This document shows positions 2,666 through 21,544 of a DNA stretch of 28,613 nucleotides, one piece after another. Under the pieces are notes generated by a model. The model did not search any database, had not been told where the DNA came from, and worked only from the letters and a program-made list of their open reading frames with translations. A program made the position numbers and the translations under genes. The first letter of the stretch is position 1. Each line of letters opens with the position of its first letter. The stretch comes from a virus (Duplodnaviria > Caudoviricetes), in IMG/VR virus record IMGVR_UViG_3300020570_000507, positions 1 through 28,613 of that record; one strand, written 5' to 3'.

Positions 2666-2952
2666 CGTTTCCAGTTTCTAGGGTTAATTTTTCCATTAGA
2701 ATGCTCAATTTTATAAATATGATTTCCAAACATATCATAATAAAGGTCAAAGACCGTTACCATTTTTGAAGAACGGCAGATGTCAATGCGAGTTCCTTCG
2801 GTATCACTATACTCAACAATATGTGCATCTGAAGGCAATTCATTAAGATTTATGTCATCTCTATTCACATCGCTCAATAGAATTTCACAATGATAATTGC
2901 TAGGTAAAGTGTTCAGCTCTTCGGTCGTCCACGGTTCGGACTTATTACTCAT
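2662..2952 (-). CDS. hypothetical protein
   Basis: 96-aa ORF, translationally coupled at both ends. Confidence 0.75.
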   Translation of the reverse strand: MSNKSEPWTTEELNTLPSNYHCEILLSDVNRDDINLNELPSDAHIVEYSDTEGTRIDICRSSKMVTVFDLYYDMFGNHIYKIEHSNGKINPRNWKR

Positions 2953-3806
2953 TTTTTATTCTCCATTTCTTTATAAAACTCATAGGCTCTTACAGTTTGA
3001 ATGATTTCTCGGGTTGCGTTTGAGTTTCTTCCAACTTCATAGCGAACGTTCTCATTCACATCTCGGGCAAGAATTGTTAGAGTTTCGGGTGGTGTGTTGG
3101 GGTTGAGTGCAACAAACCGGCGAACCATAGAATTCTCATCTCGGGCAAGAATTGTTAGAGTTTCGGGTGGTGTGTTGGGGTTGTATGCAACTTTACAGCG
3201 AACAAGACAATTCTCATCTCGGGCAAGAATTGTTAGAGTTTCGGGTGGTGTGTTGGGGTTGTTTGCAACTCTCCAGCGAACATAAGAATCCTCATCTCGG
3301 GCAAGAATTGTTAGAGTTTCGGGTGGTGTGTTGGGGTTTTGTGCAAGTTCTTTTCGTTCTTGAAGAGGAAGTTTACTAAGATTGGGAGTTACCTTAAGCA
3401 CTTTGACCGAATGTGCAAATTTGTAGACTGGATGTGCAGTTTTGTAGCCTGCGCACGCTGCCGCAGCCGTGTGCCCAACAGGCACACCACAGCGAACCGC
3501 GTCAAGCTCTATAACACTCGGACCCTCCCCCTCCTTCAAGGTGGTGCTGGCGATAAGTCTCACAACCACATCTTCATCTCGGGCAAGAATTGTTAGAGTT
3601 TCGGGTGGTGTGTTGGGGTTATATGCAAGGTCTTCCCGTTCTTGAGGAGGAAGTTTAGTAACGTCTAGAATATGCGCATAAAAAGCCCTGCTGGCTGCTT
3701 CGAACGCATTGTGCCAATCCGAGCCCAATAGGGTACGACTTTGCTCAGTCTGGCGAAGCTGTAGCAACCGAGCCAAAGCTGTGCGAATGTCTGGAGTGTA
3801 GTTCAT
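2949..3806 (-). CDS. leucine-rich-repeat-variant (LRV/HEAT-like) repeat protein
   Basis: Five NPNTPPETLTILARD repeats (26-aa period), a C-cap IQTVRAYEFY and two GC-rich non-repeat segments. Confidence 0.85.
   Translation of the reverse strand: MNYTPDIRTALARLLQLRQTEQSRTLLGSDWHNAFEAASRAFYAHILDVTKLPPQEREDLAYNPNTPPETLTILARDEDVVVRLIASTTLKEGEGPSVIELDAVRCGVPVGHTAAAACAGYKTAHPVYKFAHSVKVLKVTPNLSKLPLQERKELAQNPNTPPETLTILARDEDSYVRWRVANNPNTPPETLTILARDENCLVRCKVAYNPNTPPETLTILARDENSMVRRFVALNPNTPPETLTILARDVNENVRYEVGRNSNATREIIQTVRAYEFYKEMENKK
3059..3338. repeat. 78-bp coding tandem repeat with a 46-bp invariant core
   Basis: catctcgggcaagaattgttagagtttcgggtggtgtgttggggtt is identical at 3059, 3137, 3215, 3293 and 3575; 1 mismatch at 13272; partial at 13445. 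Confidence 0.97.
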
Positions 3807-3831
3807 TTGTTGGGTTGGTTTGTGTGAAAAT

Positions 3832-3889
3832 AATCTAGGTCAAGTTGTAGGTTTTGTCAAGCGGTAGTGGACATTTTAAAGAGTGTCAC
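3832..3889 (-). promoter_or_regulatory. early promoter with upstream bipartite motif
   Basis: GTGACAC..AAATGTCCACT, then TTGACA-17-TAGATT. Confidence 0.75.
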
Positions 3890-4080
3890 AAATACTCAGG
3901 CGGATCATATGGCTCCTCAAACATTTCTCTTGAGCGCATCTTTATGGCTCTTTGGGTTAATGATTCCAGCGAAGTTTCTTCAATAAATGTTACACTTAGA
4001 AGTCGCTCACCATTTTTAACATCAATCAGTTCGGGGTGACTAGAAACTTCAAATAGAATCCAACGGGTTCTTATAATCAT
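3886..4080 (-). CDS. hypothetical protein
   Basis: 64-aa ORF; start uncertain because it overlaps the 4049-4204 ORF. Confidence 0.5.
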   Translation of the reverse strand: MIIRTRWILFEVSSHPELIDVKNGERLLSVTFIEETSLESLTQRAIKMRSREMFEEPYDPPEYL

Positions 4081-4204
4081 TGAATAGGTCTTTGCCGGTT
4101 GTTAGAATTGAGCAAGCACGTTTATAGAAAAAGCAATCGGTTTTACCGGATTCTTCTAAAACATCTTTAATCTTTTGCCAGTTTTGTAGAGTGTGTTCGT
4201 CCAT
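4049..4204 (-). CDS. small cyanophage-type protein, 51 aa (not in ORF track)
   Basis: Hand-translated MDEHTLQNWQKIKDVLEESGKTDCFFYKRACSILTTGKDLFNDYKNPLDSI; TAATG coupling. Confidence 0.8.
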   Translation of the reverse strand: MDEHTLQNWQKIKDVLEESGKTDCFFYKRACSILTTGKDLFNDYKNPLDSI

Positions 4205-4458
4205 TAGATGTCTCCGAATTCATTGAAAATGTTAGCTTCCCACCATTCAAACTCGTCTTGAATTTTACTCTTGGCCTTGTTATATTCAGACTCATTTAGA
4301 CACCCCGGATTCTGATAAAGAACTTTCATACTATCAAGGGAGTCTTGAAGTTTTTGAATGTAGTCAAATTTATCTCTTCGTTTAATGTATTGTTCTAGAG
4401 TTTCAATTTCACCATCTGGGTATGTGAAAATTTCAGCCAGAGAATCAAAGATTATCAT
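4204..4458 (-). CDS. hypothetical protein
   Basis: 84-aa coupled ORF. Confidence 0.7.
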   Translation of the reverse strand: MIIFDSLAEIFTYPDGEIETLEQYIKRRDKFDYIQKLQDSLDSMKVLYQNPGCLNESEYNKAKSKIQDEFEWWEANIFNEFGDI

Positions 4459-4811
4459 AAGTTTTCAAATAAAGGAATAAATGTCAAGGGCTTGTCCGAT
4501 TCAATAAGAAGATGTGCCGCGATTATTTCGTTCTCATAGTGACTAAGACAATTGCGAGTTTTCTCACCCACAACGACGACAGATAAATCTTCTGCACTAT
4601 TTTTGGCCGACCTCCAATTTGCATAAGCAATATAATTTTCTCTACCCACACAGATAGATTTTTGGGAACGGCTGAGATTCTCCTGATAAATCCAAAAATT
4701 AAGAAGGGTCTTATAATTTGGTCCAAAATATTTTTCAGGATCAGTTAGAGCATCTTCTTCCCCAAGACGCAAACTTATAAGTCTATGGCGGTCTGAAATG
4801 TGATTCATCAA
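4455..4811 (-). CDS. hypothetical protein
   Basis: 118-aa ORF directly downstream of an early promoter; PEKYFGPNYKTLLNFW pattern. Confidence 0.75.
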   Translation of the reverse strand: MMNHISDRHRLISLRLGEEDALTDPEKYFGPNYKTLLNFWIYQENLSRSQKSICVGRENYIAYANWRSAKNSAEDLSVVVVGEKTRNCLSHYENEIIAAHLLIESDKPLTFIPLFENL

Positions 4812-4829
4812 GTTTTTGAATGTGCAATC

Positions 4830-4886
4830 ACAATAACAGGCCCACCAGGCAAGAGATCAAAAAGTAGACAGCTTAAAAAGTGTCAC
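4830..4886 (-). promoter_or_regulatory. early promoter motif copy
   Basis: GTGACAC..AGCTGTCTACT-27 nt-TATTGT. Confidence 0.6.
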
Positions 4887-5134
4887 CGCTCATCAAAAAC
4901 CATCTTCCGAACACCGCGCCTCTTTCTTTCCTCTTGCCAGGCAAGATCAGTCTGCGAGAGAACATTATTCTTTTTATTCTGGGTTCCGTTGGAAACAATT
5001 ATAATTCTAGAAAGGTCAACAGCGGAGATATTTTCTCCTCTGATTGTTGCCATATTTGAACAACCACAAACGGCATATTGACCCGGCTTGGCTTGCACTT
5101 CGGTATTGCAATCAAGGCATCGTATTTTTAGCAT
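4883..5134 (-). CDS. small Zn-ribbon-like cyanophage protein
   Basis: CxxC..CGCxN; DLAWQEERKRRGVRKMVFDER. Confidence 0.75.
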   Translation of the reverse strand: MLKIRCLDCNTEVQAKPGQYAVCGCSNMATIRGENISAVDLSRIIIVSNGTQNKKNNVLSQTDLAWQEERKRRGVRKMVFDER

Positions 5135-5163
5135 AACAAATCACTAATAATTAGTGATTCTAT

Positions 5164-5400
5164 TTAGTGCTTCATAATTGACTTGATGCCCTTGAGCATT
5201 CTCTTTTTTCGGTCTTTGATACTCTTTTCAATGGCCTTTCTTCCGCTCATCTTTAAAACTTCGTCTGGAGTTAAATTTGGGCGACTTGGAACATTAATTT
5301 CAGTTGCCACTGTATTTGCGGCAAGTTCGTGTGCTGCAATAAGTCTTTGAATCTCTTTAGACTTTTTACTCTCTTTTAAAAATTGCTCGAAAGATTTCAT
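5164..5400 (-). CDS. basic hypothetical protein, possibly virion-internal
   Basis: N-terminal MKSFEQFLKE resembles leaders of T4-like internal head proteins (inference). Confidence 0.6.
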   Translation of the reverse strand: MKSFEQFLKESKKSKEIQRLIAAHELAANTVATEINVPSRPNLTPDEVLKMSGRKAIEKSIKDRKKRMLKGIKSIMKH

Positions 5401-5840
5401 TTCAGATAAGACCCCAACTTATAAACATTCTTACCATGAGTCTCCATTAAATCTTGAACAATATTAGATGTGGCATAGATGCGCTGCTTATCAGCTTCTT
5501 CCGAGACATCCTTGAGCATTTCTATAAATTTTTCGTTATCCGAAAATAACTGATCAACCATTCCTCTTGCATCAATTTCTTGATTGGCATTAGCGGGACC
5601 GTCAATTGTGGATACCTCGGCAATTCGTTCTAGACTTGAAATTGGCCGGAGATTCAGATATTTCATATGCTCACTAAGACGATCAATTTCACCGAACATC
5701 TCTGTGTACTGTTCACCAAAAAGTTCGTGTAACTGAACGAAATCAGTTCCACAAACGTTGTGATGGTAGTTCCACGTTTTCTGAAACAAGACAAACAAAG
5801 ATGCTTGGGCATCACTTAATAGTTTAAATAGCTTTTCCAT
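5397..5840 (-). CDS. dps: Dps/ferritin-like DNA-protection protein
   Basis: KTWNYHHNVCGTDFVQLHELFGEQY..IDRLSEH ferroxidase-centre pattern; late promoter at 5856-5862. Confidence 0.9.
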   Translation of the reverse strand: MEKLFKLLSDAQASLFVLFQKTWNYHHNVCGTDFVQLHELFGEQYTEMFGEIDRLSEHMKYLNLRPISSLERIAEVSTIDGPANANQEIDARGMVDQLFSDNEKFIEMLKDVSEEADKQRIYATSNIVQDLMETHGKNVYKLGSYLK

Positions 5841-5855
5841 CTATTCTTTTTAGAC

Positions 5856-5862
5856 TATTTAG
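5856..5862 (-). promoter_or_regulatory. T4-type late promoter (A/C)TAAATA
   Basis: CTAAATA shortly before dps. Similar minus-strand copies at 1080, 5161, 6664, 11327, 21156, 21314, 22088, 24442 and 26595, and a plus-strand copy at 24531. Confidence 0.7.
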
Positions 5863-5866
5863 CTAT

Positions 5867-6598
5867 CTAGACGATATGAAGAGAAGTTCCACATTCCGAA
5901 CAGAATTTAGCCGTTGCGGGATTTATCGTCCCGCAAGTTTTACATTCTAACTTTGTCTTAACAGTTACTGGTTCTCTGATTTTCTTATTCTCTTCTGTTT
6001 CGCCCAACATCTTGATGGTCAAGACACCGGCATTACCGATTGAACCTTTCCATTTAGTTGTGCTAAACTTCTGTTCACTCTTAGAGCCTTCAACGGTTAT
6101 TCCGGTTTCACTTAGAGAACGAGTTGTATTGGCAGATATACTCTTAGTTTGAAAATTATCACCATACACTGCATTAGTGGTGGACATTGGCACGCCACTA
6201 TAATACTTAATGGGAACTGTTGGACGCGAATATGTCCACTCGGGAACGATAAACTCAAACTCATAATGGATCGTAATTAAACCATCTTCTAGTTTAATCC
6301 CACGGTGATTTTCAATTTTATTTGTTCTTTCAATAAATTTGAAACGATTCCCTTCAGTGAGATTACCATTTCGGATAAATCTTTCCAGGTCTACCGTTTC
6401 CGATGTATTTAAAATTAATCCACCGCCTGTTACATTTTCACCATCAATTTCTATGGTAACTTTTGCCCTGGAATAGTTGAGATTTTTTAGTCGGATTTCA
6501 TATTCAGAACCAAATGGCAGATAAACAGCATCTCCAAATTCTCTTAAAATTTTGCCGTTTACTTTAATTGCCGCTGCAAAGTTGTGTGAGTACATCAT
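5867..6598 (-). CDS. hypothetical protein with C-terminal zinc ribbon
   Basis: ATG at 6598 (MMYSHN); C-terminal CKTCG..AKFCSECG. Confidence 0.8.
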   Translation of the reverse strand: MMYSHNFAAAIKVNGKILREFGDAVYLPFGSEYEIRLKNLNYSRAKVTIEIDGENVTGGGLILNTSETVDLERFIRNGNLTEGNRFKFIERTNKIENHRGIKLEDGLITIHYEFEFIVPEWTYSRPTVPIKYYSGVPMSTTNAVYGDNFQTKSISANTTRSLSETGITVEGSKSEQKFSTTKWKGSIGNAGVLTIKMLGETEENKKIREPVTVKTKLECKTCGTINPATAKFCSECGTSLHIV

Positions 6599-6610
6599 TG
6601 TTTTCTTTAA

Positions 6611-6656
6611 GAGCACACAGACTAAATGCTCGTTTTTGGTTAGTGTTAAAGTCTGT
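6611..6656 (-). promoter_or_regulatory. candidate structured 5' leader (two interleaved helices)
   Basis: ACAGACU/AGUCUGU and GAGCA/UGCUC lie between the late promoter and the ATG. Confidence 0.4.
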
Positions 6657-6674
6657 CAGTTTTTATTTAGGCTT

Positions 6675-7037
6675 TTAAAGCAACTTCAAATGGCCAGTAA
6701 TGTCTTGAAGTTCTTCTTTTGTTGCCGGACCAATGGCACAACATGTAAGTGTTGGAACGCCATTAAATTCGGTTAATCCAGAGTCTTCAATAAGAGCGCA
6801 AATTTTGCCGGTTTGATAGGCTTTCTCATAGACTTCCAATAACTCTTCCTTAGAGTCCACCGACACACAAATTTTGGTAAAGTCTCCACTCAACCATTGT
6901 TTAACTCTATAGTCTATTTGGTTTTCAATGGTAGCTTTAAGAGAAGCATGACATGCCTGGGCAATCATTTTACCTTTGCGCATATTCAAGTCCTTGCGAA
7001 TTACAAGGACTTGTTGTAATTTGGATTGTTCAGTCAT
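6675..7037 (-). CDS. pth2: peptidyl-tRNA hydrolase, Pth2 (archaeal/eukaryal-type) family
   Basis: QVLVIRKDLNMRKGKMIAQACHAS, KICV, IEDSGLTE, TCCAIGP, ITGHLKLL. Confidence 0.93.
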   Translation of the reverse strand: MTEQSKLQQVLVIRKDLNMRKGKMIAQACHASLKATIENQIDYRVKQWLSGDFTKICVSVDSKEELLEVYEKAYQTGKICALIEDSGLTEFNGVPTLTCCAIGPATKEELQDITGHLKLL

Positions 7038-7052
7038 TAGATTTCCCCATTT

Positions 7053-7271
7053 CTAACAATAAGCAACTCTAATAATCTCAAGACCTGGATATTGTTTTTT
7101 AGCAATATCCTCTGCTTCTTGATGATTGCACTTTTCATTAACACCATGTTCAACCTTGACATAAACATAGATTTCTTTACCCGTTGAGAAACGAACCTGG
7201 TATTGTTCATTAAAATACTGTTCACGGTCTCGTTTTCTTTTTATTATTGTCTGATGTTTTTTGCTAATCAT
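7053..7271 (-). CDS. hypothetical protein
   Basis: 72-aa ORF coupled (ATGA) to the upstream gene. Confidence 0.6.
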   Translation of the reverse strand: MISKKHQTIIKRKRDREQYFNEQYQVRFSTGKEIYVYVKVEHGVNEKCNHQEAEDIAKKQYPGLEIIRVAYC

Positions 7272-7465
7272 TTGATGAGTTCAATAATACAGTCATCAAT
7301 CATAGAATTGGTCATATGGAGTTCACCATTTGGAGTGTCAAAACGAGCAACTTCAAATTTATGCAGTTGTTCTAAAAAATTACTGAGTTCTTTGTATCTT
7401 TTCTCGTCATATGGAACTTCGTTCCCTTCAAACTTTCCATACTTGGAATGAATAATCAGTTTCAT
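7268..7465 (-). CDS. hypothetical protein
   Basis: 65-aa ORF with a GGAG RBS, first gene after an early promoter. Confidence 0.7.
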   Translation of the reverse strand: MKLIIHSKYGKFEGNEVPYDEKRYKELSNFLEQLHKFEVARFDTPNGELHMTNSMIDDCIIELIK

Positions 7466-7490
7466 CGGGCTTCTCCGTGTTTATGGAAAT

Positions 7491-7534
7491 ATAATAACAT
7501 GAAAACCGTTTACGGCGAAAGTTGTGTGCCAGTT
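7491..7534 (-). promoter_or_regulatory. early promoter motif copy
   Basis: AACTGGCACAC-27 nt-TATTAT. Confidence 0.7.
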
Positions 7535-7548
7535 TTAGATGCGAACAT

Positions 7549-8388
7549 TCAAATTAATGTTAAATCTATACCGTGAGTGTCATACCACCATTCTGCGGTT
7601 TTATCCGGGTGCTTATCTTTAATTTTTAAATACCTTGAAATTATTTTACTCTGCCGTTCAATTTCATCAGTAAAAAATTTATGATCAATGGTTTCTCCAC
7701 TTTTATGGAGCTGGCGTAGTAATTTACGCAAAATATATTCTTGTTTTCGATTTCCAGGAGTATAACCAGCTTCTATTATTTTATAAATGGCTCCCTTTAG
7801 AGTTTCTGTTGCGCTTTTCACTGGATTGCCTAGAATACTTTCAATTCTCTCCAAACCAAACCCAACATCAATAAATTGACCAGAAGTATTAACGATGTTA
7901 CCAATCTCAATTCCATTTTTATAAAATTCAGTGCAATAACCTCCAAGATCACCATCACTCCATACACATTCTGAATCGTATCTAATTTCTAGGTCAGGAT
8001 AATCTGAATAAAAACATTTCCAAGAATCATATTTATCTGGATGTATAGTCACATAATCAATTGAAATATCTAATATGTCATTAAAAAATCCCATCCAAAA
8101 ATGGATAGTTTGCTGCATGGTCATTTCACCAAAAGAAAAAAGACCCAACATATTAAAATATAATAAGTGAGAGCCATCTCCAATTTCAACTAAATCTTGT
8201 AGGCGAATGCAAGATTGACTATTAGCGACAGTGGTATTGTCTGGATTTTTAAACTTGTTTTTAAACTGCTGCATTCCTGCTGGACAAAATAACGTAGTCT
8301 CATCATAAGACTTTACATTATCATCTACCTTAAAGAAAATATTATTACTTTCACAATAACTTTTATAGAGTTCAATTACTTTGTTCAT
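7549..8388 (-). CDS. alaS: minimal alanyl-tRNA synthetase (catalytic domain only)
   Basis: TLFCPAGMQQFK, SQSCIR..D..EIGDGSHLLYFNMLGLFSFG, EIGNIV, IDVGFGLERI, YILRKLLR; 279 aa, no editing or C-Ala domain. Confidence 0.88.
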   Translation of the reverse strand: MNKVIELYKSYCESNNIFFKVDDNVKSYDETTLFCPAGMQQFKNKFKNPDNTTVANSQSCIRLQDLVEIGDGSHLLYFNMLGLFSFGEMTMQQTIHFWMGFFNDILDISIDYVTIHPDKYDSWKCFYSDYPDLEIRYDSECVWSDGDLGGYCTEFYKNGIEIGNIVNTSGQFIDVGFGLERIESILGNPVKSATETLKGAIYKIIEAGYTPGNRKQEYILRKLLRQLHKSGETIDHKFFTDEIERQSKIISRYLKIKDKHPDKTAEWWYDTHGIDLTLI

Positions 8389-8391
8389 TTT

Positions 8392-8610
8392 TTAAGAAAT
8401 CACGAGAACACTAAGGTTAACTCTAGAAAAAGACCAATAATCGTTGTGTTTGTCTGTGAGGTATTCGGTATCTAGATCACGCGAAACAAGATCAGCCGGA
8501 AAAACGGAAGCGGTTTCTAATTCTAAATCTAAACATGGCTCAAAATATGTCCCCGCGCCACACACAACCTTCATATCTGCTGGGAGTTCTTTTAATTCTT
8601 TAACTGTCAT
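8392..8610 (-). CDS. hypothetical protein
   Basis: Likely start MTVKELKELP at 8610 (GGAGG upstream, ATGA overlap). Confidence 0.65.
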   Translation of the reverse strand: MTVKELKELPADMKVVCGAGTYFEPCLDLELETASVFPADLVSRDLDTEYLTDKHNDYWSFSRVNLSVLVIS

Positions 8611-9185
8611 TTTGCCTCCAACCATTTTTCTAATTTTGGATAATTCGTAAATTGAATATCTACAATGTCGAGACAGATATTATAGCTCCCGACAGACCTT
8701 GGAAGATATGTTCCGTCTGAAGTATAATCATTAGAAAACAAGATAGTTTCATCGTGATGCCCACCATAAGAATCGTCAGATTTAGATTCTACTGAAGAGT
8801 ATTGAAAACTAAACGAACCCACCTTAGGATTATAGTAAATTACACCTGTTTTTGTGCCACCATCGCGAAATCTGACCATTATTCTTTGATTTAAAAAGTC
8901 TTTAAGATCAAATTTTGGTTTAGGGTTCTCTAAGATTTTTCCAACTCTTTGATACTCCACATTATTAATCATAATAAAGTCGTCTTCAATTGGATGTGGT
9001 AGCGTAATTTTGGCCATTTTAGATTTCTCTACGGGTTGGCCCGCATTATCATAACGATCAAGAATATCCTCAATGCGCTTCTTTGTTGCAGGACCAAAAT
9101 AAACCACATTTCCTGGATGTTCATCTATAGAACGTCGTATATGTCTAAGAACATTTGCAAGTTCTTCTGAGATTTCGTCTGACAT
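8607..9185 (-). CDS. hypothetical modular protein
   Basis: 192 aa; C-terminal half resembles the N-terminus of the 9187-9690 product. Confidence 0.7.
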   Translation of the reverse strand: MSDEISEELANVLRHIRRSIDEHPGNVVYFGPATKKRIEDILDRYDNAGQPVEKSKMAKITLPHPIEDDFIMINNVEYQRVGKILENPKPKFDLKDFLNQRIMVRFRDGGTKTGVIYYNPKVGSFSFQYSSVESKSDDSYGGHHDETILFSNDYTSDGTYLPRSVGSYNICLDIVDIQFTNYPKLEKWLEAK

Positions 9186-9186
9186 T

Positions 9187-9690
9187 TCAGTTCTCCATCA
9201 CTGTAATTTCTTGAGTATAACATTCTTCGCACTCAAAATTATCACGAAGACTATCAGTGTCAGAATAATACTCTACATAACCACTTTCCGTTGGCTCTTC
9301 GTCCCATTCTTCACAATGCTCAAAATAATCTTCTGGAGTGAAAATAACAGTGCGAGTGATTTTTACCGTTTTTAGTTTGGGATAGTTCTTCTCTTCTCTC
9401 TTAAGGCGATCAATCTCCTTTTGTAATTCTACAACTTGTTTTTCTAGTTGTTCGTATTTTTTCATGGGTTTAATTTCTTCAATGTGGATTATGTCTAGTT
9501 CAGGGAATCGTGGCCATTCACTGGGGCAGCCTTTTCTCGTAAAATATCTTTCTTTGACTCCAACCCAAGAAAGCTTATATGGAAAAGTATGCCGACCACC
9601 AGGAGTGAACTTAACCTCAACGTCTCTGACATCATTATTGCCGAAGGTCACTCGGACTTTCTTATCAATAAACTGTGAAAGATCAATCAT
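9187..9690 (-). CDS. hypothetical protein with central coiled coil
   Basis: 167 aa; first gene after an early promoter. Confidence 0.75.
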   Translation of the reverse strand: MIDLSQFIDKKVRVTFGNNDVRDVEVKFTPGGRHTFPYKLSWVGVKERYFTRKGCPSEWPRFPELDIIHIEEIKPMKKYEQLEKQVVELQKEIDRLKREEKNYPKLKTVKITRTVIFTPEDYFEHCEEWDEEPTESGYVEYYSDTDSLRDNFECEECYTQEITVMEN

Positions 9691-9712
9691 AGGGTTTGGG
9701 TGTATGGTTTTT

Positions 9713-9757
9713 ATTATAGGTCATTCTATGTGGCTGTGGTATTCTCGTGTGACAGTT
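9713..9757 (-). promoter_or_regulatory. early promoter motif copy
   Basis: AACTGTCACAC-28 nt-TATAAT. Confidence 0.75.
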
Positions 9758-10122
9758 CAGACTGCGGCTTCTCGTTTAAGACGCGCAACTTCAGATGGCA
9801 CATTGAGCAACCATAGTAATTTTTTGGGATCATGTAATCTATCAGACATGTATCTCAAATCGGATTCAATCTTTTCCAAACTTTTATAACCGTAAGATTC
9901 ATATGGATTGGGAATTTCATAACCCACATAAGAAATCCGTAACTTCTTTTTTTCCTCTCTACATAAACAGCGAATTACGCTAGAAACCTCAATGATGCCT
10001 CTACAAATTTCATCAAGATTAAATTCACCTTTTTCCAGGTAATTTTTAAAGACTTTGGAATATACAAGAGAATACCAGATCTGTATTTTCTCTTTAATTC
10101 TTTTCTTAGTAGACCGTTTCAT
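9757..10122 (-). CDS. hypothetical protein
   Basis: 121-aa coupled ORF. Confidence 0.65.
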   Translation of the reverse strand: MKRSTKKRIKEKIQIWYSLVYSKVFKNYLEKGEFNLDEICRGIIEVSSVIRCLCREEKKKLRISYVGYEIPNPYESYGYKSLEKIESDLRYMSDRLHDPKKLLWLLNVPSEVARLKREAAV

Positions 10123-10679
10123 AATGTGTTTTTCGTATCATTTGAATTGTTTTCTTCCCATTCAATAACGGCTTTGTGATACAAATTCACTGCATCTCTG
10201 AGGACTTCTGCTTTGCTTCGGTGCGTACGTTTGGCAAGATCGTTTACGGTAGTGACAAAACCATCTTCGGTGGGTAGATTGTTTTCATTGATCCCAAGAA
10301 CTGCCATAGCTCGGTTGACTTCATCTTCTTCTAAATCATCAGGAATCATTGCAGCAAGCCTTTTGTCATCGTCAAGGTCTGGTGGATCAGCAAACTCTCC
10401 CCGTTGAGCTTGCTCTAGACCACGCTTAACCGAAGCGAGAGCTTCTTTGTTCTTGAATAACCATGCTTCAGACGGTGGATATGGTAACAGGGACGATGGA
10501 TCTCCGGTGTAGTCACCAACAGCGGCTTTAGACGGCACGCTAAGCACGTCTGCCCGAGCATCAAGACAGTCGCAAACTACATAAAGCACAGCACAAAGAT
10601 CGCGCAGTTTTTGTACTTCTGCCAAAGCGGCGCCTCCACGACAACGGCTGGTGAATAGGAAGGCAAGTAGGCGTTTCAT
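10119..10679 (-). CDS. chimeric protein with C-terminal ribbon-helix-helix (CopG-like) domain
   Basis: VNDLAKRTHRSKAEVLRDAVNLY matches the RHH helices; GC-rich N-terminal part. Confidence 0.65.
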   Translation of the reverse strand: MKRLLAFLFTSRCRGGAALAEVQKLRDLCAVLYVVCDCLDARADVLSVPSKAAVGDYTGDPSSLLPYPPSEAWLFKNKEALASVKRGLEQAQRGEFADPPDLDDDKRLAAMIPDDLEEDEVNRAMAVLGINENNLPTEDGFVTTVNDLAKRTHRSKAEVLRDAVNLYHKAVIEWEENNSNDTKNTL

Positions 10680-10710
10680 AATCAGTTGAGTTTGTTGGAA
10701 AAGACTAGGA

Positions 10711-10899
10711 TTACTTGTTTATCAGGTAACTAAACATAAATGAGATAAAGCATACCCAAGCATTAAACGGATCGGTGAAAGCCAAATAAACGACTACTGC
10801 GGCCCATAGCACTACAAGGCCATTGGCTACAATGGCGTGAACTACTCTTTTTGGAGTGATGTAAGGATTGGATGGGTCAAAGCCAAAGAAGTTTTTCAT
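10711..10899 (-). CDS. small membrane protein
   Basis: 62 aa with two hydrophobic stretches. Confidence 0.65.
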   Translation of the reverse strand: MKNFFGFDPSNPYITPKRVVHAIVANGLVVLWAAVVVYLAFTDPFNAWVCFISFMFSYLINK

Positions 10900-11141
10900 G
10901 GTTGGGTAATATCAGTTGGAATTTCAATTAGAGCATCAAATTCCTCAGTAAGGCGGTACGGATTGCAGTTTGACATAGCATTACAACATCTACGAACGCT
11001 CTCAACAAGCGGGCCAGTTAAATTGCGGGTAAAACAATGATAGCCTAATGTTTTATATGCTAAACTGGGCTCCTGTGTGAGAAAATCCCCAAAGTGTAGG
11101 GCATGGAACAATCGCTGTTCTTTTTCTGAGTATTTAATCAT
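10896..11141 (-). CDS. hypothetical protein
   Basis: 81-aa coupled ORF. Confidence 0.65.
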   Translation of the reverse strand: MIKYSEKEQRLFHALHFGDFLTQEPSLAYKTLGYHCFTRNLTGPLVESVRRCCNAMSNCNPYRLTEEFDALIEIPTDITQP

Positions 11142-11310
11142 TATCGGATTTTTTCAATTTTAGCGGTGGTTTGCCCCTAGGTTTATTTCGGTTTTCATAA
11201 ACATGTCCACCCAACCAGAAGACTCCCGGTGCAATTTCAAGCTCTCGAGTGAATAAGAACTTTATATACTTTATCATCACCACCTTAAATGTGTAAAATA
11301 CATTCTTCAT
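11134..11310 (-). CDS. small hypothetical protein, 58 aa (not in ORF track)
   Basis: MKNVFYTFKVVMIKYIKFLFTRELEIAPGVFWLGGHVYENRNKPRGKPPLKLKKSDND. Confidence 0.55.
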   Translation of the reverse strand: MKNVFYTFKVVMIKYIKFLFTRELEIAPGVFWLGGHVYENRNKPRGKPPLKLKKSDND

Positions 11311-11329
11311 AAGTAAATACCAAGACTAT

Positions 11330-11464
11330 TTAATTGCCCGAAAGTTTGAGCATTACCGCGAAAATAAGATAGGACAGCCCGATAAGACTTGCAAGAATCC
11401 GACTTGGGCATCCTCTTGCTACCCAGATATGACCGATAATTAAAAACAATTGAAATGAAGTCAT
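11330..11464 (-). CDS. small membrane protein, 44 aa (not in ORF track)
   Basis: MTSFQLFLIIGHIWVARGCPSRILASLIGLSYLIFAVMLKLSGN; ATGA overlap. Confidence 0.6.
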   Translation of the reverse strand: MTSFQLFLIIGHIWVARGCPSRILASLIGLSYLIFAVMLKLSGN

Positions 11465-11703
11465 TTTCCCTCCAAAATGTTTAGGTGTCGTTTAATTTCG
11501 TCTCTGGCCGAGGTGAGCATCATAATTTCATCTTCAATGATTTCTAAGATCTCGCTACCGAAATAGCTTTCGTTACATTCTAAAAACTCCTTTGCTGAAA
11601 TTTTTTGATAGGACGAAAACCAAACGTCTACTGCTGAGTGGACATCATCATTCTCATTTAAATGACGGGCAATCATCTCAAGATTAGTCTTTTTGCTACT
11701 CAT
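11461..11703 (-). CDS. hypothetical protein
   Basis: 80-aa coupled ORF. Confidence 0.7.
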   Translation of the reverse strand: MSSKKTNLEMIARHLNENDDVHSAVDVWFSSYQKISAKEFLECNESYFGSEILEIIEDEIMMLTSARDEIKRHLNILEGK

Positions 11704-11993
11704 TCTTCAGGTTCAATGGAACATGGAACGCCCTTGGATTTCAGGGCATCACAATAAAACTCGGCCATTTCAATGTCACATACTTTAATAAGACCAATTC
11801 CTGTTGTGTGAGCAGTCAACATTATTTCAATTGCCTTAGTTTGTGAAAGTTGACATACTTCCATCAGGCTCATAATAACAAGTTCTGCTGCTACTCCTTC
11901 ATCATTATGAAGAAGAACTCGTTGCTTTGGCGAATGTTTTGGAGTAGTTTGACTCTCGATGACTGTTGGTGCTTCAATGGTTTGGGTGGCCAT
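11700..11993 (-). CDS. clpS: ClpS N-end-rule adaptor
   Basis: RVLLHNDE..AIEIMLTAHTTGIGLI..EMAEFY..L..SIEPEE; cyanobacterial-like. Confidence 0.9.
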   Translation of the reverse strand: MATQTIEAPTVIESQTTPKHSPKQRVLLHNDEGVAAELVIMSLMEVCQLSQTKAIEIMLTAHTTGIGLIKVCDIEMAEFYCDALKSKGVPCSIEPEE

Positions 11994-12022
11994 GGTGATT
12001 CTCTGTGTTTGAGGATGTGGAT

Positions 12023-12068
12023 AACATAGCAGGCTATGGAATGTTGCCGTCTAGATTGTGTGCCAGTT
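12023..12068 (-). promoter_or_regulatory. early promoter motif copy
   Basis: AACTGGCACAC-29 nt-TATGTT with extended TG. Confidence 0.7.
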
Positions 12069-12334
12069 TATGGATTGGTTGGCGGTGGATTTGGTTCTCG
12101 CTTTTCTAAAGTTGGTTCCAAATATTCTTTTTCTATTTTTCGCCGTTTATATAAATCATTAAGAATATCCAAATTTGCCCAATCATAAGTGGTATAGGGG
12201 CCGCCACCCATATACCACCAGAAAAATCTCATAAACTTCCGCTGCGGCCAATAATCTGTGGACCCAAATCCATTAGTCGTTTTAAGTATTCTGTAGTTTT
12301 TTAATTCGTCTTCCATTTCAGTAATAGTGTTCAA
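12068..12334 (-). CDS. hypothetical protein
   Basis: 88-aa coupled ORF. Confidence 0.7.
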   Translation of the reverse strand: MNTITEMEDELKNYRILKTTNGFGSTDYWPQRKFMRFFWWYMGGGPYTTYDWANLDILNDLYKRRKIEKEYLEPTLEKREPNPPPTNP

Positions 12335-13113
12335 TAGGTAAAGTCATTTAAAGACAATTCACATTCTGGCTCCCATTTTTCCACAACAGTCCGAATAATT
12401 GGTTCAGTTGGGCGAAACTTTTCAGGAATATCCAAATCTTCTGGATTTACCAGCCGTCGTTGTCTTCTTACAAAAGTTCCATTGGTAAAAAACTTAGGAA
12501 GATTCTCCCATGGATTTCCTTTTTCTGTTAGCATTCTCTCCATTTCCTGGCAGGTTTTATTCTGTAGAGTCTTATGCGAGAAAAAATGCCGAGCATACAT
12601 TGAAACCGAGTTTTTCTGTGCATCCCGTTGTCTCCATGAGAAGTTCAAATAAACTTGTTCAAGGTCTGGAACATTCCAAACTCTAGCATCAAAGCTAGGA
12701 AAGTAACCTACTTTTTCTGGCAAGAAATCTGGAAGTCTTCCACAAAAATAAGATGATGCAGATCCGGCTAAAATTGATGTGAGTTTTTGAAATTTTCCAC
12801 CAAACCAAAACTCTCGGTTAGAAAAGTTTTCCTTATCCAAATACCAATAGAGAGTGATTTCATCAGACTGACAATAACCTAATTGGGCTTCACTCTTGTC
12901 AACGAGAAACTTTGTTGTTTCAATCATTAGATCGACAAATCTTTCATCAAACGGGCGTTTGAGACCCTTGGTGAAAGAGCTAAAACAATTACCATCAATG
13001 CGGGCCATGAGTGGTAGAAATGGATCTGCTTTCCGGCCAGCTTCAATCTGCTCTTGTGCTTTCAATAAATCACCAAGTTTATCTTTGCTGTATTTGGGTT
13101 CGGTCATTTTCAT
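12331..13113 (-). CDS. Thg1-like protein (tRNA-His guanylyltransferase / 3'-5' polymerase family)
   Basis: ARIDGNCFSSFT, RPFD, GYCQSDEIT, FGGKFQKL, FDAR, WRQRDAQKNS. Confidence 0.92.
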   Translation of the reverse strand: MKMTEPKYSKDKLGDLLKAQEQIEAGRKADPFLPLMARIDGNCFSSFTKGLKRPFDERFVDLMIETTKFLVDKSEAQLGYCQSDEITLYWYLDKENFSNREFWFGGKFQKLTSILAGSASSYFCGRLPDFLPEKVGYFPSFDARVWNVPDLEQVYLNFSWRQRDAQKNSVSMYARHFFSHKTLQNKTCQEMERMLTEKGNPWENLPKFFTNGTFVRRQRRLVNPEDLDIPEKFRPTEPIIRTVVEKWEPECELSLNDFTY

Positions 13114-13128
13114 TTTGTTTATAAACCT

Positions 13129-13185
13129 AACATAACACCATTTTCAGTTGAACAAGATTTATTGTGCCACTTTATCAAGTGTTTC
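13129..13185 (-). promoter_or_regulatory. early promoter motif copy
   Basis: AAGTGGCACAA-27 nt-TATGTT. Confidence 0.65.
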
Positions 13186-13341
13186 ATAAAACTCATAGGC
13201 TCTTACCGTTTGAATGACTTCTTTTGTTGCGTTTGGATTCCGTTCAACTCTCCGGCGAACATAAGAATTCTCATCTCGGGCAAGAATTGTTAGAGTTTCG
13301 GGTGGTGTGTTGCGGTTTTGTGCAATATCTACGTTGTTCAT
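13159..13341 (-). CDS. minimal LRV-repeat protein (one repeat plus C-cap)
   Basis: NRNTPPETLTILARDENSYVRRRVERNPNATKEVIQTVRAYEFY. Confidence 0.75.
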   Translation of the reverse strand: MNNVDIAQNRNTPPETLTILARDENSYVRRRVERNPNATKEVIQTVRAYEFYETLDKVAQ

Positions 13342-13718
13342 AGCTCTAAATTCTCCTTATAAAACTCATAGGCTCTTACAGTTTGAATGACTTCTCGGGA
13401 TGCGTTTGGATTCCGTTCAACCGCTCTACGAACATTACAACTCTCATCTCGGGCAAGAACAATTAAAATTTCTGGAGTAGCATTAATATTACATGCAACA
13501 CACCAGCGAGTTATTGAGCACGTTACGCTAGCATGTTCCTTTAATAATTTTATGGATTTAGTCTTGTCAGCAATAACCCAAGGTGGTTCCCAACACACTC
13601 CACTCCGAGTTGATTTCATTATTCTTTCAACTTCTCTTTCAAGATTTTTCACAATATCTTTAGCTGTTGGAGATTCCCACTTATTTTCTTTAGTGTAGTC
13701 ATTTAATAAAGATTCCAT
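13338..13718 (-). CDS. LRV-repeat protein with unrelated N-terminus
   Basis: VACNINATPEILIVLARDESCNVRRAVERNPNASREVIQTVRAYEFY. Confidence 0.75.
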   Translation of the reverse strand: MESLLNDYTKENKWESPTAKDIVKNLEREVERIMKSTRSGVCWEPPWVIADKTKSIKLLKEHASVTCSITRWCVACNINATPEILIVLARDESCNVRRAVERNPNASREVIQTVRAYEFYKENLEL

Positions 13719-17676: not shown

Positions 17677-17700
17677 TGGTTTTTATTAAGGCTACACTAT

Positions 17701-17761
17701 CATACAACAAAACTGGCACAGCGGTAAAAGTGTGTGCCAGTTTCTCATGTGTCTTGCTATT
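17701..17761. repeat. 61-bp direct repeat, copy 1 (contains early promoter)
   Basis: Matches 18467-18527 with 2 mismatches; AACTGGCACAC-27-TATGAT; internal inverted repeat aaactggcaca/tgtgccagttt. Confidence 0.92.
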
Positions 17762-17778: not shown

Positions 17779-18435
17779 TTAAATTTCACTTACATTTTTT
17801 AATAATCCAATTTTTACCAATTTACCCCTTACAAGTTCAATATTGCGGCTAACATTATTAAAATCTTCGCGAGATTTCTTAACTATCCATGGAGGTGCCT
17901 TTTTTTCAAAATTTGGATTAGAAATTTTTAAAGAAAGGATGGCATATTCCTTCTCGTATTTTTTATACACTTTAACAAGGCGGTTAACACATTCTTCATA
18001 TTTTTCTTCTTGAATTTCTATATGCCAGCTATATTCCGGCGCGGTTTTCCCTAATGCCGAGTATTCAGGTAAAGTGTAAACGAATACCTCGCTTATCGTT
18101 GGTCCTAAAAGTTCGTGATATGTTTTAATTTTATTTTTACTAAGAGCTGATTTAACGAAAATAAGAATGCCAACTTTATCTTTTCCTGGGTTAAGACCTG
18201 AAAATATCCAAACTAAATACATTTTTTCAGAATCATCCTCGGGCCTAAGCTCAAAATCATATAGACCACTTTTAATAATTGGCTTTGAAAACCAACACCA
18301 TTTTTTGTTCATTCGTTTAGCTACTTCTTCACCATAGACGCATTCGTAAAATTCGGGATCGTCTTCGGAAATCACATACCCTAACCCATTCGCCCAATCT
18401 GGAGCGGTATCCCAAGATGGTTTTTCTATTTTCAT
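17779..18435 (-). CDS. hypothetical protein bracketed by direct repeats
   Basis: Likely start MKIEKPSW at 18435; the ATG at 18462 lies only 2 nt from the -10 box. Confidence 0.7.
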   Translation of the reverse strand: MKIEKPSWDTAPDWANGLGYVISEDDPEFYECVYGEEVAKRMNKKWCWFSKPIIKSGLYDFELRPEDDSEKMYLVWIFSGLNPGKDKVGILIFVKSALSKNKIKTYHELLGPTISEVFVYTLPEYSALGKTAPEYSWHIEIQEEKYEECVNRLVKVYKKYEKEYAILSLKISNPNFEKKAPPWIVKKSREDFNNVSRNIELVRGKLVKIGLLKNVSEI

Positions 18436-18466
18436 TCCTCTAACCCCCACATTATTCTTCATACAG

Positions 18467-18527
18467 CATACAACAAAACTGACACAGCGGTAAAAGTGTG
18501 TGCCAGTTTCTCATGTGTCTTGCCATT
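18467..18527. repeat. 61-bp direct repeat, copy 2 (contains early promoter)
   Basis: Matches 17701-17761; includes the 3' end of the 18511-18879 gene. Confidence 0.92.
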
Positions 18528-18879: not shown

Positions 18880-18895
18880 TGTAAAGACACTCTAG

Positions 18896-18942
18896 TTTTT
18901 ACTCACATCAAACCAGCGTTCAAAGCTGGTTGAATTTACTAA
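18896..18942. repeat. 47-bp direct repeat (other copy 19306-19352)
   Basis: tttttactcacatcaaacca(g/a)cgttcaaa(g/a)ct(g/a)gttgaatttactaa, 3 mismatches. Confidence 0.9.
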
Positions 18943-19400
18943 TTTTTCCTGTCCCATTGCGTCTTCACATTTGTTTGCATGGTCATTCCACGTTCCGGTG
19001 AGTGGTCGGCGGATTCTTCGGGAAATACTGCAAATCTTACTTTATAAGATTGATTCATTGTAGAATCGGGTCCAGTTTGCAATTGAATGGAATATAGTAC
19101 GAGCTTGTCATATTTTTTCCTATACCGGGGAAGTGTTTCTTTTACATCATTAATAGATGAAAATAAACGGGATTTTGATTCTATCGGATATACTTTTTGA
19201 GTTTTGTCATCATAATATAAACTATTGGGCGATAGTGTAAAATAATCAAAAAGCGTAGCAATCTCTCCGGCTTGGTCTTCCGGTAGACAGCATGTATCAT
19301 TCGAATTTTTACTCACATCAAACCAACGTTCAAAACTAGTTGAATTTACTAAATTGCTTGGATGTACTGTATATTTCATTGGTTCAGGTGGTAATTGCAA
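18939..19400 (-). CDS. hypothetical protein
   Basis: 153-aa ORF (TTG start, or ATG at MKYTV). Confidence 0.6.
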   Translation of the reverse strand: MQLPPEPMKYTVHPSNLVNSTSFERWFDVSKNSNDTCCLPEDQAGEIATLFDYFTLSPNSLYYDDKTQKVYPIESKSRLFSSINDVKETLPRYRKKYDKLVLYSIQLQTGPDSTMNQSYKVRFAVFPEESADHSPERGMTMQTNVKTQWDRKN

Positions 19401-19412
19401 TTATCTCAAACA

Positions 19413-20000
19413 TCATAGAGTAAACCGAACAAATTTAGAAACTCTAATATTTTCCTTAAGAGTTCCCGCAACACTCTTTACATATTCTTCAACAGTTAGA
19501 GTATTGTCTTTAACAAAAACCTGACTCATTAGACACATCTCTTTCAGGCGTTTTGCAACTCTACCTTCAACAATTTTAGTCTTAATTGCATCGGGTTTGG
19601 CTGCAAGGTCATTTTTACCCATTTCAATTTGAGCTTCTTTCTCTGAAATTTCACTAGGAATGTCATCAACCGAAACATAAGAAACTGCAGGATATGCTGC
19701 AACCTGCATTCCCAAATTGCGAACAAGCTCTAGAAACTCTTCTGAACGAGCAACAAAATCTGTTTCACAAAGAACTTCAATCAAAACACCAACTTTACCG
19801 CCCGTGTGAATGTAAGAGCCAATAGTTCCTTCAGTTGTTTGTCTACCAGAATTGCCATCTGCAATTGAAATTCCTTTCTGTCTGAGCCAAATAATTGCCC
19901 TAGATTCATCGTCCGAATTGGCGGCTAGGGCCTCTTTACAGAGCATCATTCCGGCTCCAGTCTTTTGCCGAAGTTCTTTAATTTGTTCAATGGTTGCCAT
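19413..20000 (-). CDS. tsf: translation elongation factor Ts (short cyanobacterial type)
   Basis: [72 protein letters not shown]. Confidence 0.96.
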
Positions 20001-21279: not shown

Positions 21280-21339
21280 ATAATAAAACCCGAAACAAAT
21301 CGGATTGTCTGTCTATTTAGACCCCCTTTGCTTGACCCT

Positions 21340-21399
21340 TTAAGAATAACACAAAACCACCTAAACGGTAAAAGCGTGTACCAGTTGTTCAAGTGTCCA
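21340..21399 (-). promoter_or_regulatory. early promoter, duplicated at 21482-21541
   Basis: TGGACAC-TTGAAC-AACTGGTACAC-27 nt-TATTCT; 60-bp imperfect direct repeat at a 142-bp offset. Confidence 0.8.
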
Positions 21400-21400
21400 C

Positions 21401-21425
21401 AAAAAAGGGGCTAGTTAGGCCCCCG
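21401..21425 (-). terminator. intrinsic terminator
   Basis: GGGGC-CUAACUA-GCCCC-UUUUUU. Confidence 0.8.
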
Positions 21426-21478: not shown

Positions 21479-21481
21479 TCA

Positions 21482-21541: not shown

Positions 21542-21544
21542 AAC

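What the first reader, a model, noticed from the sequence alone, without database searches (positions are those of the whole stretch)
2949..13718. Dispersed LRV-repeat gene family with a DNA-identical scaffold and hypervariable codons: a possible natural binder library
Seen: a 46-bp core encoding NPNTPPETLTILARD is identical in five copies within 2949-3806 (no synonymous change) and has one mismatch 10 kb away at 13272. The other 32 bp of the three internal 78-bp units keep V-R and V-A fixed but change whole codons around them: DSY-VR-WR-VA-N, NCL-VR-CK-VA-Y, NSM-VR-RF-VA-L; terminal units read ENVRYEVGR, NSYVRRRVER and SCNVRRAVER. The 13159 unit (aat tct tat gtt cgc cgg aga) looks like a patchwork of two units of the large gene. 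All three genes share the C-cap IQTVRAYEFY at DNA level but have unrelated N-termini. Known: in HEAT-like solenoids the xxVRxxVAxN helix lines the binding face. Inference: recombination or gene conversion homogenises the scaffold while shuffling specificity residues, giving a modular, TALE-like binder family, for example against host defence proteins.
Basis: partly seen in the sequence, partly recalled or inferred. Interest (0 to 1): 0.8.

Follow-up and report, generated by a model that had tools for sequence, protein, structure and literature searches.

The report
Hypervariable LRV-repeat gene family in cyanophage
An uncultured lake phage related to T4-like cyanophages carries scattered small helical-repeat genes whose DNA framework is nearly identical while five to six codons on one predicted helix face differ almost completely between close relatives, so they likely act as a reshuffled set of protein binders with unknown targets; the largest gene in this window is probably two such genes joined by an assembly error.

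Summary
In detail: five identical 46-bp cores and one with a single mismatch; the third gene's core has 15 mismatches. The units are 26-aa LRV repeats (PF01816). The family runs through a whole clade: 9 genes in a 46-kb relative, 24 in a 180-kb one, none in a complete 246-kb relative. The scaffold is homogenised within a genome (a silent codon in 19 of 22 units of this strain's group versus 8 of 152 in relatives). Unit codons 17-19, 22, 23 and 26 show pN/pS 1.5-2.3 and are W/Y/C/R/G-rich. Positions 18, 19, 22, 23 and 26 fall on one side of predicted helix 2, with the spacing randomised in artificial alphaRep binders. They turn over completely between phages 97% identical in their flanks and assort in three nearly unlinked blocks. 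No reverse transcriptase or adenine bias was found. Correction: the window's 285-aa gene probably joins two paralogues that lie 16 kb apart in a relative; runs holding this strain's flanks also hold the skipped DNA at similar depth. Best reading: a recombination-diversified repertoire of binders for host proteins, evolving like fungal HIC NLR repeats, not TALE-like. Targets untested.

The parts
2949..3806 (-). 285-aa LRV-repeat ORF as assembled; probably the 5' part of one paralogue (N-cap MNYTPDIRT) joined to the 3' part of another (C-cap ending KEMENKK); the join would lie within about 3270-3338
   Evidence: (PF01816 118.9 bits, cut-off 21.6)
3575..3620 (-). 46-bp core, copy 1 (followed by the insertion instead of a normal helix 2)
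3387..3574 (-). about 63-codon insertion with a GC-rich middle (0.58-0.70 against 0.37 for the window); includes a degenerate D-A-V-R-C-G-V helix; low model confidence (pLDDT under 50 at residues 96-138); also in 4 other records
3339..3380 (-). second N-cap-like segment (LSKLPLQERKELAQ)
3293..3338 (-). 46-bp core, copy 2
3261..3292 (-). variable segment DSY-VR-WR-VA-N
3215..3260 (-). 46-bp core, copy 3
   Evidence: same in G001
3183..3214 (-). variable segment NCL-VR-CK-VA-Y
   Evidence: same in G001
3137..3182 (-). 46-bp core, copy 4
3105..3136 (-). variable segment NSM-VR-RF-VA-L
   Evidence: same in G001
3059..3104 (-). 46-bp core, copy 5
3027..3058 (-). terminal unit VNEN-VR-YE-VG-R; the same peptide unit ends LRV genes with other N- or C-caps in relatives (c4628 gene, L250)
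2973..3002 (-). shared C-cap IQTVRAYEFY
3832..3860 (-). sigma70-like promoter match (TTGACA, 17 nt, TAGATT; 10 of 12) upstream of the large ORF, kept in G005; consensus match only (50 sites found against 41 expected in shuffles)
13159..13341 (-). 60-aa one-unit LRV gene with C-cap; core at 13272-13317 (1 mismatch), cap at 13186-13215
   Evidence: (17.3 bits, below cut-off); identical in G004
13338..13718 (-). 126-aa gene: unrelated N-terminus, degenerate LRV unit (core 13445-13490, 15 mismatches), C-cap 13359-13388; stop overlaps the start of the 13159 gene
   Evidence: (no Pfam match); identical in G004

Best explanation
These are members of a phage-expanded family of 26-residue LRV helical-repeat genes whose scaffold DNA is homogenised within each genome while five to six codons on one predicted helix face are diversified and reshuffled, likely producing a renewable set of small binders that would grip host proteins, probably defence or take-over targets in a picocyanobacterium. 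Mechanism, step by step. (1, shown) Each gene is a short N-cap, 1-8 units and a shared C-cap; the frames examined are open. (2, predicted) Each unit folds as two short helices; positions 18, 19, 22, 23 and 26 form one side of helix 2, and the fixed V-R and V-A face the other way. (3, pattern shown, process inferred) Homologous recombination or gene conversion seeded by the 46-bp cores spreads scaffold variants across dispersed genes and swaps the three variable blocks (17-19, 22-23, 26), caps and whole units between genes and between co-infecting relatives. (4, shown) Amino-acid change at those codons outruns silent change and is biased to W, Y, C, R and G. (5, inferred) Selection favours new binding surfaces because the partners, host proteins, vary or change. 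The same cores mislead short-read assembly: the window's 285-aa gene is probably a join of two paralogues.
For: PF01816 and a 1LRV fold match. Helix 174-182 and equivalents at pLDDT about 98; helical-wheel directions 73 versus 270 degrees for variable and fixed residues. Same spacing as the randomised alphaRep positions 18, 19, 22, 23, 26, which bind through the concave face (PMC3754942, passages). pN/pS 1.50-2.02 at variable codons in 5 of 5 close strain groups and 2.34 in the distant G006, where the columns were defined independently; scaffold 0.35-0.52. Silent CCC at unit position 6 in 19 of 22 Pro-6 units of this strain's group versus 8 of 152 in others. Orthologues share no more variable residues than random paralogues (1.99 versus 2.04 of 6, n=337). 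With 97% identical flanks only 1 of 24 and 0 of 21 units have a near match, against about 90% expected. Same amino acid means same codon in 82% of variable-site pairs, as in the scaffold (83%), so a limited pool of codon alleles is reassorted; linkage z 11.3 (18-19) and 8.9 (22-23) but 2.1-2.9 across VR or VA. W 12.6-fold, C 8.7-fold, Y and R 2.8-fold enriched. 24 genes in G006 and 9 in G005. Cyanophage context: NrdB 66-70% to Synechococcus phages, CysRS best named hits Vulcanococcus, Cyanobium and Synechococcus, photosystem reaction-centre (PF00124) match in G003.
Against: No target, expression or binding data. The family is absent from 4 of 5 further relatives, including a complete 246-kb genome, so it is not essential. 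Variable columns in the close clade were chosen for being variable, and the unit filter required V/A20, R21, V24 and D15, which biases both pN/pS figures; units are not independent, so the p and z values are optimistic. Repeat numbers and cap combinations come from short-read assemblies that break in these arrays (G001 ends at window 3270), and the fungal literature shows such assemblies misreport conserved repeats (PMC11761791). Near-clonal records carry identical arrays (G001, G004, c2589 = G007, c3773 = c4628), so change is not per generation. G002, G003 and G010 are only assumed to be this phage, and G010 lacks the CCC signature.
Confidence: 0.6

Rival explanations
1. Sequence-reading nucleic-acid binders (TALE, PPR or PUF-like): each unit reads one base through its variable helix-2 residues and the family tunes host or phage transcripts or DNA.
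For: The variable face is rich in aromatic residues and Arg. Units such as C-R-V-A-Q recall the PUF base-reading motif (recalled, not tested). Modular one-unit-one-code logic fits the shuffling.
Against: 65 proteins have median pI 5.1 and 88% are below 7; mean net charge per unit is -1.2. Arrays are short (1-8 units). Fold matches are 1LRV, PP2A-A and alphaRep, none a nucleic-acid reader among the rows shown. 161 distinct hexads in 175 units is far more than a four-letter code needs.
Confidence: 0.12
2. A self-spreading coding repeat: the 46-bp core and C-cap act as recombination seeds that multiply and fuse into neighbouring small genes, and the proteins do little; variation at exposed codons is relaxed constraint.
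For: Patchy, lineage-specific expansions (0 matches in G011, G013, G014, G015; 61 in G012; 75 in G006). Fusions to unrelated N-termini (G003 gene, window 13338). Some silent scaffold sites are nearly frozen (pS 0-0.06 at units 7, 9, 15, 20, 24), which suggests DNA-level homogenisation.
Against: Relaxed constraint predicts pN/pS near 1 and background composition, but the ratio is 1.5-2.3 and W is 12.6-fold enriched. The scaffold is under purifying selection, genes keep caps and overlapping stop-start junctions, and no mobility enzyme was seen next to the window's copies.
Confidence: 0.13
3. Moving-target or decoy proteins: all members do the same job (bind one conserved partner through the fixed surface, or soak up a host sensor or protease) and the exposed face varies only to escape host recognition.
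For: Complete turnover between close strains with no locus-specific conservation of the variable face is unexpected if each locus had its own fixed target. The invariant R21 and caps could carry the common function.
Against: Escape alone does not predict costly, sticky W/Y/C enrichment on the face that alphaReps use for binding.
Confidence: 0.1
4. A diversity-generating retroelement or other targeted mutagenesis writes the variable codons.
For: Positions 17 and 19 are mostly N-N-T codons, as adenine mutagenesis of an AAT template would give.
Against: No RVT_1 match in 5 of 5 records, including the 83%-complete G006 (none 90% complete). The 19 consensus adenines in the scaffold vary only 0.09 on average, and variable positions with consensus C, G and T vary too (0.60, 0.41, 0.25). 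Near-clonal records have identical arrays.
Confidence: 0.05

Closest known systems
LRV, leucine-rich repeat variant (Pfam PF01816 / PF25591; Azotobacter vinelandii protein, PDB 1LRV)
   Same: Sequence (PF01816 E 2.5e-35; phmmer to 1lrv_A E 1.1e-11) and fold (Foldseek E 1.5e-4) match.
   Different: Here the units are 26 aa with an NPNTPP insert relative to 1LRV, nearly identical at DNA level, spread over many small phage genes and hypervariable on one face. LRV function is not established in the papers found.
Fungal NLR sensor repeats with high internal conservation (Podospora het-d, het-e, het-r WD40; TPR and ANK NLRs)
   Same: Concerted evolution within and between genes, repeat-number polymorphism, and diversifying selection at a few interface codons per repeat (PMC11761791 and PMC4986451, passages); the same pattern is shown here. 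Both defeat short-read assembly.
   Different: No NACHT or NB-ARC domain and no effector domain; free-standing 60-330-aa genes in a phage; a different repeat type; partners unknown.
alphaRep artificial HEAT-like binders (PMC3754942)
   Same: Same variable spacing 18, 19, 22, 23, 26 around an xxVRxxVA or AA helix; small residues common at 23; 18-19 and 22-23 behave as cassettes; alphaRep chains appear in the fold search.
   Different: alphaRep is a designed library of 31-aa units (length recalled) with proven binding; this is natural, 26-aa, and binding is untested.
Imm-HEAT, Imm-ank and Imm-LRR repeat immunity proteins of polymorphic toxin systems (PMC3482391)
   Same: Alpha-helical repeat proteins proposed to neutralise toxins by binding (passages).
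   Different: The paper does not mention LRV (0 occurrences in the first 300,000 characters held); no toxin gene was seen next to the window's copies; these are phage genes.
TALE effectors
   Same: Near-identical tandem DNA repeats with hypervariable specificity codons (recalled).
   Different: TALEs have 33-35-aa repeats, two loop residues and DNA targets (recalled); here 26 aa, five to six helix residues, acidic proteins.

Membership tests
LRV (PF01816) | Profile score above the curated cut-off | tested here: met
   285-aa ORF 118.9 bits against 21.6, 5 stretches; the 60-aa gene scores 17.3 (below) and the 126-aa gene has no match, so those two are members by DNA and peptide identity to the first only
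LRV (PF01816) | Two-helix repeat solenoid like 1LRV | tested here: met
   AlphaFold2 model, repeats at pLDDT about 98; best Foldseek hit 1lrv, E 1.5e-4, TM 0.38/0.45 on the whole ORF
HIC-repeat NLRs (HNWD type) | NACHT or NB-ARC nucleotide-binding domain plus effector domain | tested here: not met
   No such Pfam domain in the three window proteins; relatives are 50-330-aa cap-repeat-cap proteins
HIC-repeat NLRs (HNWD type) | Concerted evolution of repeats within and between genes | tested here: met
   Strain-specific silent CCC in 19 of 22 versus 8 of 152 units; scaffold distance 0.017 within gene, 0.073 within strain, 0.111 between strains for this strain's group; weak among the other strains (0.100, 0.114, 0.116)
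HIC-repeat NLRs (HNWD type) | Diversifying selection at a few interface codons per repeat | tested here: met
   pN/pS 1.5-2.3 by pairwise counting, not by a codon model that allows for recombination
HIC-repeat NLRs (HNWD type) | Repeat-number polymorphism | tested here: inconclusive
   Orthologues carry 2-8 units; L095 and L103 differ by one unit; all are short-read assemblies
HIC-repeat NLRs (HNWD type) | Repeat sequence determines ligand specificity | not testable with these tools
   No partner known
TALE | 33-35-aa repeats with a repeat-variable di-residue in a loop (recalled) | tested here: not met
   26-aa units; variable residues on helix 2; no TAL Pfam match
TALE | Sequence-specific DNA binding | not testable with these tools
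   Acidic proteins argue against it
Diversity-generating retroelement | Reverse transcriptase in the genome | tested here: inconclusive
   0 of 5 records match PF00078, but none is 90% complete
Diversity-generating retroelement | Variation confined to template adenines | tested here: not met
   Scaffold adenines nearly fixed; C, G and T consensus positions vary
CRISPR array (46-bp repeat, 32-bp spacer look-alike) | Unrelated non-coding spacers between repeats | tested here: not met
   The 32-bp segments share fixed GTT CGC and GTT GCA codons and keep an open frame

The most novel reading that the evidence does not exclude
Lake cyanophages run a natural, RT-free antibody-like system: dozens of small LRV solenoids per genome whose three codon cassettes are reshuffled by recombination across the phage population, giving each lineage its own panel of inhibitors against variable host defence proteins, a natural counterpart of the engineered alphaRep library.
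Probability: 0.4. Interest if true: 0.9.

Novelty: new variant of a known kind. Interest (0 to 1): 0.66.

Why it matters
Phage counter-defence proteins known so far are mostly single, unrelated small proteins (own knowledge), and the known phage diversifier, the DGR, needs a reverse transcriptase. A multi-gene repeat family diversified by recombination and selection, with 24 genes in 180 kb of one relative, would be a second route to a binder repertoire. Its targets would list the host proteins that matter in cyanobacteria-phage conflict, and it would give the little-studied LRV fold a function. It is directly testable by pull-down and is a ready-made compact scaffold. Practically, it warns that LRV genes in short-read phage assemblies can be chimeric and can hide deletions of many kilobases.

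Tried and rejected
DGR: no RT in 5 records and no adenine specificity. CRISPR-like reading: rejected on sequence. TALE membership: rejected. Cultured phages: only 1 of 50,697 records matched the protein, a Moorella phage at 35%. Bacterial and archaeal genomes: 62 loci with LRV relatives at 30-65% identity in scattered MAGs; no donor stands out. A viral-contig search for the gene upstream of the downstream paralogue found close relatives but no contig of this strain, so it was uninformative on the join. The metagenome scan returned the window's own record (L248) and 4 others, none bridging the join. A 20-nt search for the N-cap gave G005 and one chance hit, L253. No RNA holder was listed. No contig bridges the array in 4 runs, and no exact contig was laid on 3011-3050; a hole there proves nothing. 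The promoter scan is near chance overall (50 versus 41), and a strict promoter pattern lay upstream of only 4 of the LRV genes listed, so early expression is not established. No tRNA in the window. No complex prediction was run because there is no candidate partner. Literature searches found no description of this phage family: 0 papers; 5 plant LRR papers; listings only, none on phage LRV; 771 papers, the 40 listed are mostly NOD2. Subscription journals are not covered and no supplements were read.
Full report
Context. The window is a 28.6-kb virus record with PhoH, thymidylate synthase, AdoMet decarboxylase, Thg1, ClpS, Pth2, ferritin-like, SegE and NrdB-like genes. NrdB is 66-70% identical to Synechococcus phages. 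The best named CysRS hits are Vulcanococcus, Cyanobium and Synechococcus. G003, assumed to be the same phage, matches the photosystem reaction-centre family in three pieces. All four runs holding half or more of the sampled words are freshwater or lake metagenomes. So this is a T4-like freshwater cyanophage; a picocyanobacterial host is an inference.

Observation. Confirmed: five identical 46-bp cores, one copy with 1 mismatch at 13272-13317, and a shared 30-nt C-cap. The third gene's core has 15 mismatches. The 13159 unit differs from one unit of the large gene by 2 of 27 nt over codons 16-24, so it is not good evidence of patchwork.

What the repeat is. PF01816 LRV, 118.9 bits; phmmer and Foldseek both put 1LRV first, followed by PP2A-A and alphaRep chains. 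The AlphaFold2 model from a 28-row alignment gives pLDDT about 98 over the repeats and under 50 at residues 96-138. Each unit has two helices, the second covering unit positions 18-26. alphaRep binders are randomised at positions 18, 19, 22, 23, 26 and 30 and bind through the concave face (PMC3754942, passages). The ESM Atlas places the repeat region nearest to three LRV clusters that are 93-98% viral (scores 0.94-0.96).

A clade-wide family. Viral-contig scans gave 14, 7 and 48 loci. G005 (45.9 kb; 83-91% nt to the window) has 9 LRV genes, G007 8 in 37.7 kb, and the distant G006 24 in 179.5 kb with its own scaffold and cap. G012 has 61 profile matches in 100 kb; G011, G013, G014 (complete, 246 kb) and G015 have none. 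For this strain I count the 3 window ORFs plus one gene each on G001, G002, G003 and G010. G001 and G004 are 99.9% identical to the window. G002, G003 and G010 are assigned by shared sample label in their contig names and, for G002 and G003, the shared silent codon; this is an assumption.

Evolution. One search extracted 288 units. One search kept 249 distinct units passing a filter on D15, V/A20, R21, V24 and position 7 (175 close clade, 74 G006); the filter fixes those columns. Codons 17, 18, 19, 22, 23, 26 give pN/pS 1.98, 1.73, 1.62, 1.50 and 2.02 in five close groups and 2.34 in G006; the scaffold gives 0.35-0.52. There are 161 distinct variable hexads among 175 units. W, C, Y, R and G are enriched 12.6, 8.7, 2.8, 2.8 and 1.7-fold. 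Cys may partly be a bridge, since TGT lies between TGG and TAT (inference). Homogenisation: silent CCC at position 6 in 19 of 22 Pro-6 units of this strain's group, over six genes, versus 8 of 152 elsewhere; G010 and the 13338 gene lack it. Among the other strains within-strain and between-strain scaffold distances hardly differ (0.114, 0.116), so the sweep is clearest in this strain. Turnover: syntenic orthologues share 1.99 of 6 variable residues against 2.04 for random paralogues (337 comparisons, 6 exact). Between G005 and G007 (flanks 97.1-97.9%) 1 of 24 units has a partner within 1 of 18 variable nt, and between c4628 and c6600 (96.8%) 0 of 21, against about 90% expected at 3% divergence. 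Assembly errors can move units but not invent these sequences. Shuffling: identical amino acids use identical codons in 82% of pairs at variable sites; codons 18-19 and 22-23 are linked (z 11.3, 8.9) but linkage across the fixed VR or VA is weak (z 2.1-2.9). Structural covariation could add to the adjacent linkage, and units are not independent. The terminal unit VNEN-VR-YE ends genes with different caps in different strains. Near-clonal records have identical arrays, apart from one unit between L095 and L103, so this is not per-generation hypermutation. No RT was found in 5 records and variation is not adenine-specific.

The large gene is probably a join. Its 5' side matches G005 42189-43736 and its 3' side G005 22468-25820; G005 has about 16 kb of other genes between. 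Of 10 proteins with this N-cap only the window's ends in KEMENKK, and G005's orthologue also ends differently. That ending belongs in five other records to the gene at the downstream locus. G001 breaks at window 3270 inside the array. Runs X1-X3 hold both flanks with 0-1 differences at depths 9.0 and 10.2 (X1). The same runs hold most of the part of the skipped region that I laid (G005 25.9-40 kb; little cover beyond about 38.3 kb) as long single contigs 90-98% like G005 at depths 8.2-10.5 (X1); 0 of 75 X1 records are 99% like G005, and one X1 contig runs from the skipped region into an LRV repeat where G005's downstream gene begins. Loose ends in X1 show the alternative KEFKVT-type cap. No contig bridges either junction, depth is a rough measure, and one run may be the window's source, so I put the assembly join at about 0.75 against a real repeat-mediated deletion. 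Either way the cores are identical across different genes, which strengthens the dispersed-scaffold point.

Mechanism and rivals. Best reading (0.6): recombination or gene conversion through the cores homogenises the scaffold and reassorts three codon blocks, caps and units, and selection favours new aromatic-rich surfaces that bind host proteins, probably defence or take-over targets. The pattern is shown; the process and function are inferred. Rivals: selfish coding repeat (0.13), nucleic-acid reader (0.12; proteins are acidic, median pI 5.1 in 65), decoy or moving target (0.10), DGR (0.05).

Comparison. It is an LRV-family member. It evolves like the HIC repeats of fungal NLRs (PMC11761791 and PMC4986451, passages) but lacks their NTPase and effector domains, so it is not one of them. 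It is not a TALE, DGR or CRISPR array. Repeat immunity proteins of polymorphic toxins are a functional lead (PMC3482391, passages). Nine literature searches showed no paper on a phage LRV expansion; coverage is open-access only. This scan's own notes already hold 20 findings with these words in at least 13 genomes (8 shown); they are unchecked AI notes, not independent support, but they show the family is recurrent rather than unique to this window.

Verdict. Real, non-neutral and apparently undescribed in the papers searched: a new variant of a known kind. Interest 0.66; 0.9 if distinct host targets are shown.

Noticed in passing
window 3347 boundary; G005 26130-42012 (L060, L061): About 16 kb present in a relative and largely in runs X1-X4 (glutaredoxin-like, macro-domain-like, metallophosphoesterase-like, glycosyltransferase-like and epimerase-like ORFs by eye, plus two more LRV genes) is missing from the window at the LRV array.
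   Followed up: yes
window 3387-3574: GC-rich 63-codon insertion inside the LRV gene, about 90% conserved in P0002-P0004 and G005, open only in the sense frame and one antisense frame; origin unknown.
   Followed up: partly
window 17691-17761, 18457-18527, 21335-21405, 21477-21542, 27087-27112, 3865-3890: A dispersed intergenic motif with a short inverted repeat (G-T-G-[TC]-C-A-C type) upstream of genes, two copies 97% identical over 61 nt; similar motifs lie upstream of LRV genes in G001, G002 and G003. It resembles the early-promoter motif of T4-like cyanophages (recalled; not confirmed).
   Followed up: partly
window 6675-7037, 7549-8388, 12331-13113, 17779-18462, 19413-20000, 22482-23813: A dense set of translation-related genes: Pth2, a short AlaRS-like N-terminal domain, Thg1, a protein ending in a ValRS tRNA-binding arm, an EF-Ts-like ORF (by eye) and CysRS, but no tRNA gene in the window.
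   Followed up: partly
window 22431-22507 and 23826-23901: The CysRS gene is flanked by direct repeats (28 nt at 89% and 48 nt at 79%, spacing about 1394), as if inserted as a cassette by duplication or recombination.
   Followed up: no
G003:46202-48016: Photosystem reaction-centre (psbA-type) match split in three pieces, possibly by introns.
   Followed up: no
G003:50375-50779: LRV gene whose N-terminus looks like a small phage ORF fused to the MTSSLE-type LRV start that is a separate gene in G008, G009 and L096.
   Followed up: partly
P0009, P0014, P0016, P0018: Larger proteins with an N-terminal domain bearing a W-C motif fused to near-identical LRV arrays; the Atlas also lists GNAT-LRV fusions in viruses.
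   Followed up: no
window 18888-18945 and 19298-19355: 58-nt direct repeat (88%) with a small hairpin at both ends of the 153-aa ORF 18939-19400.
   Followed up: no
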